Virus record (IMG/VR): IMGVR_UViG_3300019458_000191
Coordinates: 1-64,000 of that record
DNA from: a virus
Length of the DNA stretch: 64,000 nt
Strand: one strand, 5' to 3'
The translations under genes were made by a program, and so were the position numbers. This document shows, one piece after another, positions 10,193 to 60,939 of the stretch. The number at the start of each line of letters is the position of its first letter. Position 1 is the stretch's first letter. The notes beneath the pieces were generated by a model. It did no database searches and had not been told where the DNA came from. It worked only from the letters and a program-made list of their open reading frames with translations.

Positions 10193-10579
10193 ATGAATGA
10201 TGATGCATCGATGGGTGAAGTTCAAGTAGTTCAATTTAAAAATGTTAAATTGTTGAGATTAGGCGTACCAAACAAAAACGGTACGGTTTATACAAAGGAA
10301 TGTGTAGAAAAGGCTCTAGCAAAAATGAATAATGAAGAGGATAAGGTCATTGTTCATAATGTGTATGCCGAAAATCCCATGCCAGTTGGCATGATCGAAA
10401 ATCTGAGAATTGAAGGGGATTTATTAATGGCTGATTGTTTATTTAATCCTGAATTTATCAAATTGATTGAAGGTAAGACTATAAATGTAAGACCTATTGG
10501 ACAAGGCGTGTTTGATGAAAACGGAAAATTAGAAGATTATACTATTAGTGGGCTGACCGTGGTTTATCAGCCACAATAA
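10193..10579 (+). CDS. divergent T4 gp21-like prohead-protease homolog, probably catalytically degenerate
   Basis: PNKNGTVYTKECVEKAL resembles NRNGRxYPxxxLE; IENLRIEGDLLMA; RPIGQG where gp21 has SSRGxG. Confidence 0.5.
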   Translation: MNDDASMGEVQVVQFKNVKLLRLGVPNKNGTVYTKECVEKALAKMNNEEDKVIVHNVYAENPMPVGMIENLRIEGDLLMADCLFNPEFIKLIEGKTINVRPIGQGVFDENGKLEDYTISGLTVVYQPQ

Positions 10580-16759: not shown

Positions 16760-16849
16760 TGGTAGTCCTGTAGCGAGTCGAACGCTATCCCGGCACTGAT
16801 CTAGTGCGAATGTTGTTATAAGCAACACGTCCCTCCAAGGGTCAGGACC
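16760..16849 (-). tRNA. atypical tRNA, anticodon UAU (nominally Ile), with long variable arm and minimal D-arm
   Basis: GGTCCTG/CAGGACT acceptor stem + A-CCA; anticodon loop CTTATAA; T-arm TAGCG-TTCGACT-CGCTA; V-arm GCACT-AGATC-AGTGC. Confidence 0.8.
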
Positions 16850-16862
16850 ATTTTAAATCAAT

Positions 16863-16923
16863 TTAATCGGTCAAAATATCCCGTCGCCAGTCCCACAAAA
16901 TATAAGGCGATAAGACCGATTAA
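16863..16923 (-). ncRNA. structured element upstream of the atypical tRNA
   Basis: TTAATCGGTC...GACCGATTAA outer stem enclosing TCGCC/GGCGA. Confidence 0.45.
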
Positions 16924-16950
16924 TGGAATAATTAAAATTACTGTCATAAA

Positions 16951-17136
16951 TTATCTTCTATTCAAATTTCGACTTCGTTTTAACGGAAGCCAACGATTTG
17001 CAAATTCTTCATTATTCATTAACTTATGTTTAAAGTAATCAAAGTTGCCTGCCATTGGCTGACAATTATCAACATACCTTTCGTATGCTGTATTTAATTC
17101 TTTATCAGAATACTCGATAATTCTAGTTAATTTCAT
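16951..17136 (-). CDS. small hypothetical protein
   Basis: 61-aa ORF downstream of a promoter. Confidence 0.55.
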   Translation of the reverse strand: MKLTRIIEYSDKELNTAYERYVDNCQPMAGNFDYFKHKLMNNEEFANRWLPLKRSRNLNRR

Positions 17137-17234
17137 AAATCATAATGGACTTGGTTGCCTTACTCTTCTTTGGATTGGGGTCTTATACCGTCATCTAATC
17201 GTTCCGCCCATTAGAGAACGTTCATCTGTAAATA

Positions 17235-17262
17235 AGTATAACAGACTTTTAAGTATTGTCAA
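17235..17262 (-). promoter_or_regulatory. sigma70-type promoter for the small ORF / tRNA / ncRNA cluster
   Basis: TTGACA-16 nt-TATACT with extended -10 TG. Confidence 0.7.
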
Positions 17263-17321
17263 GAAACAATTACAATTACAACAGGGGTGCTAGGCGTGGA
17301 TGGTGGTTCAGTTGGTGGCAT
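17259..17321 (-). CDS. 20-aa micropeptide MPPTEPPSTPSTPVVIVIVS
   Basis: Manual translation; closely matches the C-terminal 14 aa of the upstream Fn3 protein. Confidence 0.55.
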   Translation of the reverse strand: MPPTEPPSTPSTPVVIVIVS

Positions 17322-17342
17322 AGGTATTTATATAAAATTAAG

Positions 17343-17375
17343 AAAACACCCCCGCTTTTAACAGGGGTGTTTTTT
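17343..17375. terminator. intrinsic terminator-like hairpin
   Basis: AAAACACCCC...GGGGTGTTTT(TT). Confidence 0.7.
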
Positions 17376-17393
17376 GGTTTAATGTATTGTCAA

Positions 17394-17678
17394 TTAGGAA
17401 ACAATGACTGTAACAGATGGGGTTTCAGGAGCCGAAGGAAGACCGGGGGTACTTCCAACTCCAGAGAAACCGCTGTTGCCAGCCAAATTTTGAGCCAACA
17501 CTTTGTAAGCATAAATGCCGGGAAGTGGATTCAAAATGTCATAGCTTGGTGATGGCGAAGCCAATACCGTAGCTTTGAAGGTGAAACTTGCACCATTTAC
17601 TGATTCCCATAATTGATAACTAGTTACTTGTTCAGATGGGTTATTTGCTGCCCAAGTGATGTGTATAGTTGTTGCCAT
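17394..17678 (-). CDS. stand-alone fibronectin type III domain protein, apparently circularly permuted
   Basis: ITW, VTSYQL, LPGIYAYKVLAQNLAGNS Fn3 signature; C-terminal PSAPETPSVTVIVS. Confidence 0.8.
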   Translation of the reverse strand: MATTIHITWAANNPSEQVTSYQLWESVNGASFTFKATVLASPSPSYDILNPLPGIYAYKVLAQNLAGNSGFSGVGSTPGLPSAPETPSVTVIVS

Positions 17679-17804
17679 AATTAATCCTTTTTGTTAATTC
17701 GTATCCGTCATTGGATACAATAATAAATAGATATAATATTAACATTTATTGTATTTTTATAAAAATAAATTTACTTGATGGCGAGGGGTTTATGAAAAAT
17801 GAAA

Positions 17805-17879
<75 letters not shown>

Positions 17880-17948
17880 GTAATATTCAATGGTTTCGGT
17901 TCCTAGTCACTCAATTAAGGTAAGCTACAGTCTTACCACCATCAAAAT

Positions 17949-18022
17949 TGGAGCAGGTAACTGGAATCGAACCAGCACTTCAGCATTGGCAATGCCGTGG
18001 GCTACCACTACACCATACCTGC
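17949..18022 (-). tRNA. tRNA-Gly(GCC)
   Basis: GCAGGTA...loop TTGCCAA...GGTTCGATTCC...TACCTGCTCCA. Confidence 0.96.
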
Positions 18023-57798: not shown

Positions 57799-58155
57799 TT
57801 ATAATTCTTCTATAAGAATTTTTTTAGATGTCAGTTCTATCATTATTTCTTTACCATTAATAGATGTTTCTTCGAGATAAAAAATCGTATGTTCACCGAC
57901 AATATTTATAGACTTCACTTGTTTTATGGGATTTAATTTACTATGATTACATAAGTTACTAGCTTTACGTATATTCATATTATTATTGAAATAATCTATC
58001 CAATATTGTTTATTTTTTATTGGAACTTTGGTACCAAATGATGATATATCATCCGGCATCATACGTTCTATCTCCATCTTTATCCTCAATTGGTTTTCCA
58101 TCAGAAGGAAGAGAAGTATCCCATTGGAATTTTGGTCTGAAATCTCCGTCACCAT
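57799..58155 (-). CDS. hypothetical protein (true start probably internal)
   Basis: ORF overlapping the upstream gene. Confidence 0.45.
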   Translation of the reverse strand: MVTEISDQNSNGILLFLLMENQLRIKMEIERMMPDDISSFGTKVPIKNKQYWIDYFNNNMNIRKASNLCNHSKLNPIKQVKSINIVGEHTIFYLEETSINGKEIMIELTSKKILIEEL

Positions 58156-58333
58156 CAGAATACAACGTCACGTTACGTGAAGACCCCAATCCACCAAGTT
58201 GTTGCATGTATTTCAACATAGCAAGAAAATGAGGAATCCATCTCTCTTCCATACTACACTCAATAGTAAATGTTTTACTGTTTCTCATGTTTCTCTCCGT
58301 GACAGTTCTTACATAAAAGAACACAATAAACAA
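58049..58333 (-). CDS. hypothetical protein (likely start 58288)
   Basis: LGGLGSSRNVTLYSDGDGDFRPKF conserved-looking phage motif. Confidence 0.65.
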   Translation of the reverse strand: MFIVFFYVRTVTERNMRNSKTFTIECSMEERWIPHFLAMLKYMQQLGGLGSSRNVTLYSDGDGDFRPKFQWDTSLPSDGKPIEDKDGDRTYDAG

Positions 58334-58503
58334 AGTAAAGGTTTTTTATAATACCACCTTCTTTTTAATAATTTATCTCTTTCCGGATTATTTTTTACCC
58401 AATGTTTATCTCTACATCTCGTAGAACAAAATTTCTTATTAGGATGTTTTGTAGATAGTAAAAAATCAGAATTACAAAATAAACATTTAACTAATGTCTC
58501 CAT
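58309..58503 (-). pseudogene. Zn-binding N-terminus of a truncated HNH/homing endonuclease
   Basis: CLFC...KKFCSTRC...WVKNNPE; no nuclease domain follows. Confidence 0.5.
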
Positions 58504-58777
58504 TTTCCTTTATCTTCTCGTTTTCGTAATCCGAAACAGGTCTTCTATATAATTCCAATTTTATACACTCTAATACACCAATTAAATCATTAGCAGTCTG
58601 ATATCCGCGTTGAAGATTCAAAATTCTATTACAAACCGTTGATATGACGTAATTTATTTCTCCCACCGAATATAATGGTTTGCGTTCATCAAAAAGATTT
58701 TCCTCTGTGAGTTTTCGAACAATAGTATCTATTAATTCGTCGTATTTCTTTCGGTCTTCTGGTTTAATATAAGGCAT
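58487..58777 (-). CDS. DUF6899-like protein
   Basis: MPYIKPEDR...GEINYVI...GVLECIKLELYRR...YENEKIKENGD. Confidence 0.75.
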   Translation of the reverse strand: MPYIKPEDRKKYDELIDTIVRKLTEENLFDERKPLYSVGEINYVISTVCNRILNLQRGYQTANDLIGVLECIKLELYRRPVSDYENEKIKENGDIS

Positions 58778-58778
58778 A

Positions 58779-59120
58779 TTATTCGAAACTTTTACATTTG
58801 AGTTGAATTACGGTGACAGTAGAAGTCAAATCCAAATCAGGATAATAATCTCTCAATCCTTCAAATAAATCCGTTCTCGACACAAACCCATCTTTTATAT
58901 ATTCGTCTTCGGTTATGTCATTGAGTGTAGTATGACGAACGTTGACTACTTCTGCTTCCATGCACCAATTTACATCGGGACAAGCCAAAATAACTTTACC
59001 GGGTTTATAATCTCTATGACCTTCTCGAATTGTGATAGTTTTTTCTCCACTCATTGCTACATCTATAAGAGATTCTGACAGGAGAAGACATTGTAAAGGT
59101 TTTTTTAATTTAGACTCCAT
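58779..59120 (-). CDS. ASCH domain protein
   Basis: SGEKTITIREG, DITEDEYIKDGF, YYPDL. Confidence 0.85.
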   Translation of the reverse strand: MESKLKKPLQCLLLSESLIDVAMSGEKTITIREGHRDYKPGKVILACPDVNWCMEAEVVNVRHTTLNDITEDEYIKDGFVSRTDLFEGLRDYYPDLDLTSTVTVIQLKCKSFE

Positions 59121-59298
59121 AATTTATTTTAACTAAATATTTTTTTGTTATTGATTGAGAATGAGCCAGAGAAACTTCAGCAACAGGAGTTCCCGGAGGA
59201 TAAATAGTTTCGATGGTAACTGGTCCCTTTTCTTTAACAAGAGTTAACAATCCATTGATTATTTCCTCAGACGTATCAAATGATAATGTCTCACTCAT
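59110..59298 (-). CDS. small hypothetical protein
   Basis: ORF with overlaps on both sides. Confidence 0.5.
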   Translation of the reverse strand: MSETLSFDTSEEIINGLLTLVKEKGPVTIETIYPPGTPVAEVSLAHSQSITKKYLVKINYGV

Positions 59299-59633
59299 AC
59301 TGGTTCCATGTATTCTACAGGTATTCCAAATTCTGTAGCAATCTTTATTTCAGCATTGACTCCGGTTGATTCCTTATATCCATCAACCATCAAAACTATA
59401 AGTTTTTGACAACGAGCAATCATTGCCACATCGAATGCTTTCCAGAATTCCCAATGACCTGGCAAACTTGCATCAACCGACATTGGATGACATTGAGAAA
59501 TAGGAGCAAAAACAAAATGACCTTCACACATCAATTTTGAAGCTGCTCTATTTGATGCATGAAATCTTTCTTCTTGAACAGATTTATCTTTATGAGAATA
59601 CGGACAGGCTAAATATATGAGGGAATTATTCAT
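59295..59633 (-). CDS. DUF1937 / nucleoside 2-deoxyribosyltransferase-like protein
   Basis: IYLACPYSH, FAPISQCH, WKAFD, ESTGVNAEI. Confidence 0.85.
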   Translation of the reverse strand: MNNSLIYLACPYSHKDKSVQEERFHASNRAASKLMCEGHFVFAPISQCHPMSVDASLPGHWEFWKAFDVAMIARCQKLIVLMVDGYKESTGVNAEIKIATEFGIPVEYMEPV

Positions 59634-59634
59634 A

Positions 59635-60027
59635 TCAATTCGAATTAGGATTTAATGCTCCTGTTAAATGAATAAGTTCCACCGAATTATATGGTTGAAC
59701 TATTAAATTAATGGCCAATGTTGCTGGCTCCAAAAAATATACATGTGTTCGATATGATTGTATTATTTTCATATCTTCGAGTGTCAGTAATTCTTTATCG
59801 ATATTTGATGACACTTTAGTTCGTGTTTCAGAATTCATCGGTTCAAATGCCGATGCACGTAACTCTCTATCAATTAATTCTTTCAAAGTCTTAACAAGAA
59901 CACTATTTTCATACCTTGAAAGAGTGTCTGATTTTTCCGTTGTATTATTTGACCAAGAAGGTCTTGGAATCCAAGCAAACAAACAAGTCAAAAATGATGC
60001 TTTAGTAAAAAATTGTCTTCTATTCAT
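59635..60027 (-). CDS. Tat-signal protein carrying a tail-sheath C-terminal-like domain
   Basis: MNRRQFF twin-arginine motif; AFEPMNSETRTKV...L..L...IIQSY...INLIVQPYNSVELIHL. Confidence 0.6.
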   Translation of the reverse strand: MNRRQFFTKASFLTCLFAWIPRPSWSNNTTEKSDTLSRYENSVLVKTLKELIDRELRASAFEPMNSETRTKVSSNIDKELLTLEDMKIIQSYRTHVYFLEPATLAINLIVQPYNSVELIHLTGALNPNSN

Positions 60028-60192
60028 TGTTGACCTCCTTCAAAGCAAGTTCATACATGTTCATTAGTGTAGAGCTTAATGTTTCGCCTCCATGAAAGAC
60101 TTCTAATTTTTTGTAAAGATTCAAGGTCGATTCTTGATTTTGCTTCTTTTCCATTCTTTCTAACTATTATTTCAACTTCATTTTTCATAATT

Positions 60193-60939
60193 TTATCGTA
60201 ATTCAGGTTTCAAAAGTTTCCAACGGTCGCTGTTAATTCTTACAATATTATCATCGATGTTTTCTACCATCGTCATGACTTCTTCAACGTTATTGTAGAT
60301 GTATTTATGAGGAACAGCACCCATTATCCACAATGGAGTCTTTTTCTTACCACCTTCAATAGAAAGGAACAAAGGTTTCTTTTCACGAATGACAGTGGTT
60401 ATTTCTTCGGCACTTCCCCACGATGCTTTCTCTGGAATGATATGAGCTATAAAGAAATCACAAATATCACACAATCTTAAATCATGAGAACGAACCTGCC
60501 ACATTCTCTGTTGAACCAAATCATATTGTTCTGTTTCCATCCAGTGATGCATTTCATCTCGTGACCTTTCATCTTCTGGAATTTCATTAATGAATGGTTT
60601 GTGATATGGGTCGAAAAAGGTAATATTCCTATTGGCGAGCCTCTGTTTTATAACATCTCTCCATCCCCGGCCGTCTGAATATTGCATGTGACCAATCAGA
60701 TAACAGCGAGTTCTAAACAAAACGTTTTCTTTTGTTTTAACAGATGATTGTTGGTCTTCTGCATTACCAAACAATAATTTTTTGTGTTCATTTTCCATAG
60801 GAATTTTATAATTCTGGTTTTTAATAACCCGGCAACCTTCTTCTTCTAAAGAACGAATCCGAATGTCAAACCACTCTCCGGTGGCATCATTTCGTTGTAA
60901 CCACCAAGGCGGATCACCGGCTGACAGTTTTGTTGACAT
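60193..60939 (-). CDS. nucleoside 2-deoxyribosyltransferase-like protein
   Basis: CYLIGHM, WRD, FFDPY, DLRLCDICD, SWGSAEEI. Confidence 0.75.
   Translation of the reverse strand: MSTKLSAGDPPWWLQRNDATGEWFDIRIRSLEEEGCRVIKNQNYKIPMENEHKKLLFGNAEDQQSSVKTKENVLFRTRCYLIGHMQYSDGRGWRDVIKQRLANRNITFFDPYHKPFINEIPEDERSRDEMHHWMETEQYDLVQQRMWQVRSHDLRLCDICDFFIAHIIPEKASWGSAEEITTVIREKKPLFLSIEGGKKKTPLWIMGAVPHKYIYNNVEEVMTMVENIDDNIVRINSDRWKLLKPELR

What the first reader, a model, noticed from the sequence alone, without database searches (positions are those of the whole stretch)
59635..60027. Tail-sheath C-terminal domain fused to a twin-arginine export signal
Seen: MNRRQFFTKASFLTCLFAWIP, then ~95 aa (LKELIDRELRASAFEPMNSETRTKVSSNIDKELLTL...IIQSYR...LAINLIVQPYNSVELIHL) matching by eye the contractile sheath C-domain pattern (I......FEPN...TR..I...I..FL..L....I..F.V...L...I.I.P....EFI.L). 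It lies among non-structural genes. Established: this domain forms the inner handshake layer of phage, T6SS and eCIS sheaths. Inference: an exported or membrane-tethered sheath mimic that could poison competitor tail or host T6SS assembly, block superinfecting tails, or decoy a sheath-sensing defence. It parallels the dead protease homolog at 10193.
Basis: partly seen in the sequence, partly recalled or inferred. Interest (0 to 1): 0.7.

Follow-up and report, generated by a model that had tools for sequence, protein, structure and literature searches.

The report
Stand-alone tail-sheath domain with export-like leader
A large uncultured T4-like phage from a cave carries, among its DNA-replication genes, a small orphan gene that joins a secretion-signal-like leader to the inner core domain of a phage tail sheath; this design is not described in the papers I could search and its function is untested.

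Summary
The ORF at 59635-60027 (-) is real: 130 aa, GGAGG ribosome site, start overlapping the upstream stop. Residues ~30-127 are homologous to the C-terminal (inner) domain of contractile tail sheaths. A profile of 91 sheath C-termini scores 28.0 bits, against at most 9.9 in 2000 shuffles. ESM Atlas structure search gives TM 0.85. PDB sheaths give Z 7.1-9.8, against 6.1 for gp25.

The leader MNRRQFFTK + 12 uncharged residues + RPSWS reads like a Tat or Sec signal and ends where homology begins. However, both curated Tat profiles (TIGR01409, PF10518) miss it and no signal predictor was available, so export is plausible but unproven.

The gene is an orphan: no true relative in 1.84 billion representatives. 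It lies in a lineage-specific insert of small genes absent from 82 related loci.

My best guess, at low confidence, is an early periplasmic accessory protein acting on incoming tails, like T4 Sp.

This scan's notes report the same design in two other phages (e1-5754555, e1-5411941). I could not test those. Interest is moderate.

The parts
59635..60027 (-). Gene for P0001, 130 aa: leader plus sheath inner domain
   Evidence: ORF list and translation. The open frame extends only 4 codons upstream of the ATG. The sequence is identical in contigs of two cave-metagenome runs.
59950..60027 (-). Residues 1-26, MNRRQFFTKASFLTCLFAWIPRPSWS: signal-peptide-like leader. It has an RR-x-F-F motif, a 12-residue uncharged h-region, a basic residue in the c-region and a small-x-small SWS site.
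   Evidence: Read from the sequence. It is the only ORF over 100 aa with such an N-terminus in the 89.9-kb record. It is not matched by TIGR01409 or PF10518.
59647..59940 (-). Residues 30-127: homologue of the contractile-sheath C-terminal (inner, 'handshake') domain. It lacks about 7 residues of the sheath 'NNTP' loop.
   Evidence: HMM alignments; reciprocal hit at 59662-59940; alignments A1 and A2; Atlas TM 0.85 over residues 27-127; AF2 model with H32-58, H66-85, E89-100, E103-112; PDB sheath matches Z 7.1-9.8.
60034..60038 (-). GGAGG ribosome-binding site, 6 nt before the ATG
   Evidence: Sequence.
60020..60154 (-). Upstream 44-aa ORF whose stop overlaps the P0001 start (ATGAATAG). Possible translational coupling.
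   Evidence: No Pfam hit.
58779..60154 (-). Lineage-specific insert block (44 aa, P0001, DUF1937 / nucleoside 2-deoxyribosyltransferase-like, 62 aa, ASCH) between the conserved 248-aa gene and the DUF6899 gene
   Evidence: tblastn of each gene against 82 related loci gave 0 of 82 for all five block genes. In L024 and L004 the 248-aa homologue is followed directly by DUF6899. GC3 of the four named block genes is 0.19-0.25 (the 44-aa ORF is 0.42), against 0.29-0.34 in the flanking core genes.

Best explanation
P0001 is a real, expressed-looking accessory gene of a roughly 340-kb T4-like jumbo phage. It encodes only the inner core domain of a contractile tail sheath (two helices plus a beta-hairpin, then the C-terminal strand). 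In place of the 400-1000 N-terminal residues of a true sheath there is a cleavable-looking signal peptide.

Shown here: the homology, the fold class, the domain boundaries, the orphan status, and the position in a variable insert among replication genes.

Inferred:
1. The leader sends the domain across, or anchors it in, the inner membrane by Tat or Sec, so the domain works in the periplasm.
2. There it acts on parts of incoming contractile tails, most plausibly the naked tail tube. The tube is the natural ligand of the sheath inner domain and the only sheath partner that enters the periplasm.
3. The outcome would be superinfection exclusion or superinfection sensing. This would be analogous to the small periplasmic T4 proteins Sp and RI, whose genes also lie among early genes (T4 facts recalled, not tested here).
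For: - The gene looks real: intact ORF, GGAGG 6 nt upstream, start/stop overlap with the preceding ORF, tight same-strand array. It is identical in two runs.
- Sheath inner-domain homology: 28.2 and 28.0 bits against sheath C-terminal HMMs, with 0 of 2000 shuffles reaching this. PHROG and tblastn hits fall only on sheath C-termini, and there is a reciprocal hit.
- An MSA-free ESM Atlas model matches small PF17482-bearing clusters at TM 0.85 and 0.80.
- PDB sheaths rank on top: P1 Z 9.8, eCIS 9.6, Anabaena CIS 8.8, T4 gp18 Foldseek probability 0.99.
- The leader ends exactly where homology starts.
- RR-hydrophobic N-termini are rare. In the 89.9-kb record, 4 ORFs fit my pattern but only this one exceeds 100 aa. 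In 1.15 Mb of related loci, 2 ORFs fit. A random origin of the leader is therefore unlikely.
- Position: an accessory insert next to the clamp, clamp loader and polymerase genes.
Against: - Both curated Tat-signal profiles fail on it, even at E<=10 per record, while ringing in 12 of 14 control genomes. No SignalP, TatP or DeepTMHMM was available.
- No homologue exists, so neither purifying selection nor RR conservation can be shown. The two runs carry no variants.
- Pfam's own PF17482 model does not reach E<=1 on the protein or E<=10 on the record.
- The phage's own sheath and tube are not in the 89.9-kb record, so tube binding is pure inference.
- The AF2 model used an MSA of sheath domains and is therefore partly circular. 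Its residues 1-25 and 116-130 are below pLDDT 50.
- Host and host Tat system are unknown.
Confidence: 0.4

Rival explanations
1. Neutral or decaying gene fragment. A 3' piece of a sheath gene was captured in a hyperplastic region and happens to be open, with no selected function.
For: - Orphan: only itself among 5.8 billion clusters and 1.84 billion representatives.
- Absent from 82 of 82 related loci.
- Only 20-29% identical to sheath C-termini, which are 52-67% identical among themselves in the XacN1-like set.
- The conserved NNTP loop is deleted.
- Low GC3 (0.20) within a block of small accessory genes.
Against: - The ORF is intact, with a strong ribosome site and a coupled start.
- The truncation falls exactly at the domain boundary.
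- The core residues shared with all sheaths are kept: R38, F61-E62-P63, T68-R69, P112, E117, I119.
- The signal-like leader is a rare feature.
- Scan notes report the same architecture in other phages (untested).
Confidence: 0.25
2. Not exported. The hydrophobic N-terminus is an inner-membrane tether or a self-complementing strand, and the domain acts on sheath polymerisation from the cytoplasmic side. It would cap or regulate the phage's own sheath, or poison a competitor's tail or the host's T6SS sheath.
For: - Tat profiles do not match.
- All natural partners of the domain except the tube in an infecting tail are cytoplasmic (established knowledge).
- AF2 places residues 13-18 as a strand beside the hairpin, which gives POTRA-like matches at Z 6-6.8. 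That segment is below pLDDT 50.
Against: - With R3, R4 and K9 before the hydrophobic stretch, the positive-inside rule (established knowledge) puts the domain outside, not in the cytoplasm.
- The h-region is uniformly hydrophobic rather than alternating.
- The P-x-S-W-S end looks like a signal-peptidase site.
Confidence: 0.15
3. Ordinary virion protein: the baseplate 'sheath initiator' (gp25/TssE/Mu gp46 analogue), which has the same fold and a similar size.
For: - Its size (130 aa) is close to the T4 gp25 chain 5iv5_BD (126 residues), which aligns at Z 6.1.
- Other gp25-like structures also align: a 122-aa Streptomyces CIS baseplate chain at Z 5.9 and IraD at Z 5.8.
- An Atlas structure row is a GP46 family cluster at TM 0.69.
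Against: - Sequence profiles match the sheath, not gp25, and there is no GPW_gp25 Pfam hit at E<=10.
- Sheath chains outrank gp25-like chains (Z 7.1-9.8 against about 6).
- There is no baseplate or any structural gene in 89.9 kb.
- It is absent from relatives.
- It has a hydrophobic leader.
Confidence: 0.05

Closest known systems
Contractile tail sheath proteins (T4 gp18; sheaths of XacN1 and phiXF1; Pfam PF04984 + PF17482)
   Same: Residues 30-127 align end to end with the last ~100-130 residues of sheath proteins. They keep the R...FEP..TR...P....E.I core and the two-helix plus hairpin fold.
   Different: It is 130 aa instead of 450-1200 aa. It has no PF04984 part, no N-terminal arm and no NNTP loop. 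It is not next to a tube gene. A signal-like leader takes the place of the rest of the sheath. Identity is only 20-29%.
gp25 / TssE / Mu gp46 sheath initiators and IraD (GPW_gp25 fold)
   Same: Small stand-alone proteins with the same alpha/beta core (Z 5.8-6.1; GP46 cluster TM 0.69). IraD shows that the fold can be reused outside a tail (recalled).
   Different: There is no sequence match to GPW_gp25. P0001 carries the sheath-type FEP..TR motif, a leader, and a non-structural genomic context.
T4 Sp (spackle), Imm and RI: small early envelope proteins of T4 (recalled knowledge; only the reference-list entry for RI's cleavable signal peptide was seen, in PMC13673990)
   Same: A small protein with an N-terminal signal, encoded among early or replication genes of a T4-like phage. 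Sp targets a part of an incoming tail in the periplasm.
   Different: No homology was found: no superinfection-exclusion PHROG at E<=1. The only hint is a chance-level tblastn hit on a Cor gene (E=5). The function of P0001 is untested.
Tat-signal plus sheath C-domain proteins noted earlier in this scan (e1-5754555, e1-5411941)
   Same: The same stated architecture and the same stated position among replication genes of T4-like or jumbo phages.
   Different: P0001 finds no small homologue by any search here, so it is either very diverged or an independent invention.

Membership tests
Contractile tail sheath protein | C-terminal inner domain (Phage_sheath_1C type) | tested here: met
   Custom HMMs of 8 and 91 sheath C-termini score 28.2 and 28.0 bits, with 0 of 2000 shuffles as high. 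Atlas TM 0.85. PDB sheaths Z 7.1-9.8. Pfam's own PF17482 model gave no hit at E<=1 on the protein or E<=10 on the record.
Contractile tail sheath protein | N-terminal and middle sheath domains (PF04984), length of several hundred residues | tested here: not met
   The protein is 130 aa and the frame opens only 4 codons upstream. PF04984 is absent from the record.
Contractile tail sheath protein | Encoded in the tail module next to the tube gene | tested here: not met
   Neighbours are the clamp, clamp loader, DUF1937, ASCH and DUF6899 genes. There is no structural gene in 89.9 kb. Real sheath genes in L020 and L002 are followed by tube genes.
Tat (twin-arginine) substrates | S/T-R-R-x-F-L-K-like motif followed by a moderately hydrophobic h-region and a basic c-region (consensus recalled) | tested here: met
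   N-R-R-Q-F-F-T-K, then 12 uncharged residues (ASFLTCLFAWIP), then R22 and SWS|N, read. It passes my regex and hydropathy filter.
Tat (twin-arginine) substrates | Match to the curated Tat-signal profiles TIGR01409 or PF10518 | tested here: not met
   No hit at E<=10 on the protein or on the record. The controls rang in 12 of 14 genomes.
Tat (twin-arginine) substrates | RR-dependent export by a host TatABC system | not testable with these tools
   The host is unknown (cave metagenome). This needs fractionation with RR-to-KK and tat mutants.
gp25 / TssE sheath initiator (PF04965) | Sequence match to GPW_gp25 | tested here: not met
   No such Pfam hit at E<=10 (HMMER filters may drop weak hits).
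gp25 / TssE sheath initiator (PF04965) | gp25 fold | tested here: inconclusive
   T4 gp25 5iv5_BD gives Z 6.1 (rmsd 2.8, 80 aligned). This is below the sheath chains at Z 7.1-9.8. The two folds are related.
gp25 / TssE sheath initiator (PF04965) | Baseplate gene neighbourhood | tested here: not met

The most novel reading that the evidence does not exclude
Large phages deliberately export detached domains of their own virion proteins to the host periplasm. Here it is the tube-binding, strand-accepting inner domain of the sheath; elsewhere in this scan it is tube and protease copies. These exported domains would recognise, block or sense the tails of superinfecting phages, or incoming contractile injection systems. 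This would be a new class of envelope-level exclusion or sensing factor built from tail parts.
Probability: 0.15. Interest if true: 0.8.

Novelty: new variant of a known kind. Interest (0 to 1): 0.5.

Why it matters
The sheath inner domain is known only as a building block of cytoplasmically assembled contractile machines. A stand-alone copy behind an export-type leader, placed among early replication genes, would mean the fold has been reused at the cell envelope. If it binds incoming tail tubes, it would be a new kind of superinfection-exclusion or sensing protein and a handle on how tails cross the periplasm. If it is only a decaying fragment, it still shows how hyperplastic regions of jumbo phages sample pieces of structural genes.

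Tried and rejected
**Searches for homologues that found nothing useful**
- Near-length search found only the protein itself. The longer-length search gave 656 candidates and none at E<=10.
- phmmer over 1.84 billion representatives gave one other hit, P0002. It is a repeat protein with summed 22-residue repeat matches, and I rejected it as spurious.
- IMG/VR and the JGI metagenomes had no relative.
- PDB by sequence gave only a chance hit (E 0.52).
- A tblastn hit on a Cor superinfection-exclusion gene (E=5, residues 25-76) is chance level.

**Structure**
- The single-sequence AF2 model was unusable (pLDDT 42.4).

**The phage's own sheath**
- I could not find it. PF17482, PF04984 and phrog_10581 are absent from the record, and phrog_10581 rang nowhere, not even in the controls.
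- The relative G001 showed no sheath by PF04984, PF17482, the XacN1 sheath or my first HMM.
- Sheaths of more distant relatives (7 of 22 records searched; 16 further handles were not held) are only 17.7% identical to P0001 at best.

**Search for other stand-alone sheath-C genes**
- 83 of 83 loci found with sheath-C alignments are full-length or contig-cut sheath genes.
- 18 of 18 XacN1-type records, and the 7 records with a match among the 22 clamp-loader relatives, have exactly one match each. In every case it lies in a long frame.
- 82 clamp-loader loci have none; the best score was 12.9 bits, E 0.013.

**Promoters**
- TATAAATA occurs at chance frequency (12 observed against 8.3+-2.8 expected) and none lies just upstream. 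The sigma-70 and terminator scans were at chance.

**Expression and population data**
- No RNA holder was listed. The two DNA runs are identical and may be the source of this DNA.

**Papers**
- Two full-text searches were run (listings and abstracts seen).
- Passages were searched in 10.64898/2026.10.24.761521: 0 occurrences of 'sheath', 'Tat' or 'periplasm'.
- Passages were searched in PMC13673990: 4 'phage' mentions, none about phage Tat cargo.
- I found no description of this design. Supplements are closed.

**Not run**
- Complex prediction was not used. No own partner protein is available, and an MSA of true sheaths would pass by likeness.

Full report
**1. What is there**

The frame opens only four codons upstream of the ATG, so the N-terminus is unambiguous. 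A GGAGG lies at 60034-60038, six bases before the start. The start overlaps the stop of a 44-aa upstream ORF (ATGAATAG), and the next gene begins one base after the stop. The same sequence, without a single difference, stands in long contigs of two cave-metagenome runs. These may be the source of this DNA, so they are not independent.

The window belongs to an 89,913-base viral record rated 26% complete. The same protein is on record on a 340,916-base contig. The record carries T4-type non-structural genes only:
- RIIA, helicase, RtcB-like protein and ligase;
- clamp loader, with a 248-aa ORF (no family hit) where T4-like phages have the sliding clamp;
- DNA polymerase, a Mom-like protein and glycosyltransferases.

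**2. The sheath domain**

Pfam finds nothing above noise. The other lines of evidence agree with each other:
- The only two PHROG hits are tail-sheath families, both at their C-terminal ends: positions 368-421 of 431 and 807-903 of 915 (E 0.11 and 0.14).
- In 50,697 phage records, the five best of seven tblastn hits fall on the last ~100 codons of sheath genes (three annotated as tail sheath, one unannotated record, one 'hypothetical protein'): phiXF1 at E 0.03, and XacN1, Xoo-sp13, CM1 and RAS14 at E 1-3.
- Searched the other way, the XacN1 sheath hits only 59662-59940 in the whole record (E 0.004).
- An HMM of eight sheath C-termini scores the mature part at 28.2 bits. An HMM of 91 scores it at 28.0 bits; 83 of those 91 were collected without reference to P0001. 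The best of 2000 shuffles scored 11.6 and 9.9 bits, and the reversed sequence scored below 0.
- The alignment runs from residue ~30 to ~127. It keeps R38, F61-E62-P63, T68-R69, P112, E117 and I119, and lacks seven residues of the conserved NNTP loop.

Structure searches point the same way:
- The ESM Atlas holds its own MSA-free model of this protein (pTM 0.53). Residues 27-127 match a 118-aa viral cluster, partly annotated PF17482, at TM 0.85, and a 130-aa 'sheath C-terminal domain' cluster at TM 0.80. By language-model features the best hit scores 0.95. The tool states that shuffles reach that score about once in 100, and that this was not calibrated for parts of proteins.
- An AF2 model built on an MSA of sheath domains (so partly circular) is confident for residues 32-112. 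It shows two helices and a hairpin (mean pLDDT 66.7).
- Foldseek ranks T4 gp18, Klebsiella phage KP1, Anabaena CIS and AFP sheaths first. Probability is 0.99, but E is only 0.1-0.3.
- VIA-align gives Z 9.8 (P1 sheath), 9.6 (eCIS) and 8.8 (Anabaena CIS), down to 7.1 (AFP). All align to the C-terminal ends of the chains. gp25-type chains score about 6, and POTRA domains 6-6.8. The POTRA matches depend on a low-confidence strand made from the leader.

I conclude that the domain is a sheath inner domain. It is related in fold to gp25 but closer to the sheath.

**3. The leader**

Residues 1-26 read MNRRQFFTK, then 12 uncharged residues, then RPSWS. This fits the recalled Tat consensus loosely (the K is one place late). 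It has a basic residue in the c-region and a small-x-small site, and it ends where sheath homology begins.

It is the only ORF over 100 aa with such an N-terminus in the record. A similar filter finds two ORFs in 1.15 Mb of related loci. One of them, in L005, has weak Tat-profile hits.

Against this, TIGR01409 and PF10518 do not match P0001 at E<=10, either on the protein or on the record, while ringing in 12 of 14 control genomes. No dedicated predictor was available. My estimates are about 60% for export or membrane anchoring by some route, and about 35-40% for Tat specifically.

**4. Context and relatives**

P0001 has no true homologue.

In the closest loci, whose clamp loaders are 53-59% identical, the backbone is clamp, loader, 76 aa, 248 aa, (DUF6899), 189 aa. 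Five genes of the window (44 aa, P0001, DUF1937, 62 aa, ASCH) are found in 0 of 82 loci. P0001 therefore sits in a lineage-specific insert. The four named genes of that insert have lower GC3 (0.19-0.25) than the core genes (0.29-0.34).

Whole records of 22 relatives and 18 XacN1-type phages each have at most one sheath-C match, always in a long frame. Sheaths of the complete relatives score 121-126 bits against the profile, whereas P0001 scores 28. They are at best 17.7% identical to P0001. P0001 is therefore not a recent copy of that type of sheath. The phage's own sheath could not be seen.

**5. Mechanism**

Sheaths and T6SS sheaths polymerise in the cytoplasm (established knowledge). A leader with its positive charges first puts the domain outside the cytoplasm.

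The only natural partner of the inner domain that enters the periplasm is the tail tube of an infecting contractile phage. T4 places small envelope proteins that act on superinfecting phage (Imm, Sp) or sense it (RI) among its early genes (recalled). I therefore favour a periplasmic accessory protein that binds or senses incoming tails. The confidence is low, and every step after 'leader plus domain' is inference.

The rivals are a neutral fragment, a cytoplasmic or membrane-tethered cap on sheath polymerisation, and a gp25-like virion protein.

**6. Novelty**

Two full-text searches and passages of two papers gave no description of a signal-tagged stand-alone sheath domain.

This scan's own notes list the same design in two other phages (e1-5754555, e1-5411941). 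They also list export-tagged tube and protease copies (e1-5704136, e1-5968299). These are untested AI notes. My searches found no small relative of P0001, so I could neither confirm them nor link P0001 to them.

I file the finding as a new variant of a known kind (a sheath domain in a new architecture and place). Interest is moderate because export and function are unproven and the gene is an orphan.

Noticed in passing
L005:9043-9510 (+): A relative of this phage encodes a 155-aa ORF starting MNRRDFIKAVPVLALA. It has weak Tat-profile hits (TIGR02811 E 0.0078; PF10518 E 0.35). Its mature part has no family hit and no match to the sheath HMM.
   Followed up: partly
window 57799-60154: About ten small genes are inserted into a conserved backbone (clamp, loader, 76 aa, 248 aa, DUF6899, 189 aa). 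None of the inserted genes is found in 82 related loci, so this is a hyperplastic spot.
   Followed up: partly
window 60193-60939 (-): The 248-aa protein has weak nucleoside 2-deoxyribosyltransferase-like hits. It carries about 70 extra N-terminal residues compared with its 179-aa homologues in L004 and L005. A second such domain (DUF1937) lies two genes downstream.
   Followed up: no
model of P0001 residues 7-114: With the leader modelled as a strand, the beta-alpha-alpha-beta-beta arrangement matches POTRA domains of BamA, TamA and FtsQ at Z 6-6.8. The N-terminal strand has low confidence, so this is probably only a common arrangement.
   Followed up: no
The protease claim was not examined further.
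   Followed up: partly
window 60373-60613: Run X2 also holds a 5.9-kb contig from a diverged relative. It matches two short pieces of the 248-aa gene with 6-7 differences each.
   Followed up: no
window 16760-18022 (-): Three tRNA genes are present: Ile(UAU) of 90 nt, Gly(UCC) and Gly(GCC). The odd Ile tRNA was already followed up in this scan (e1-6114797).
   Followed up: no
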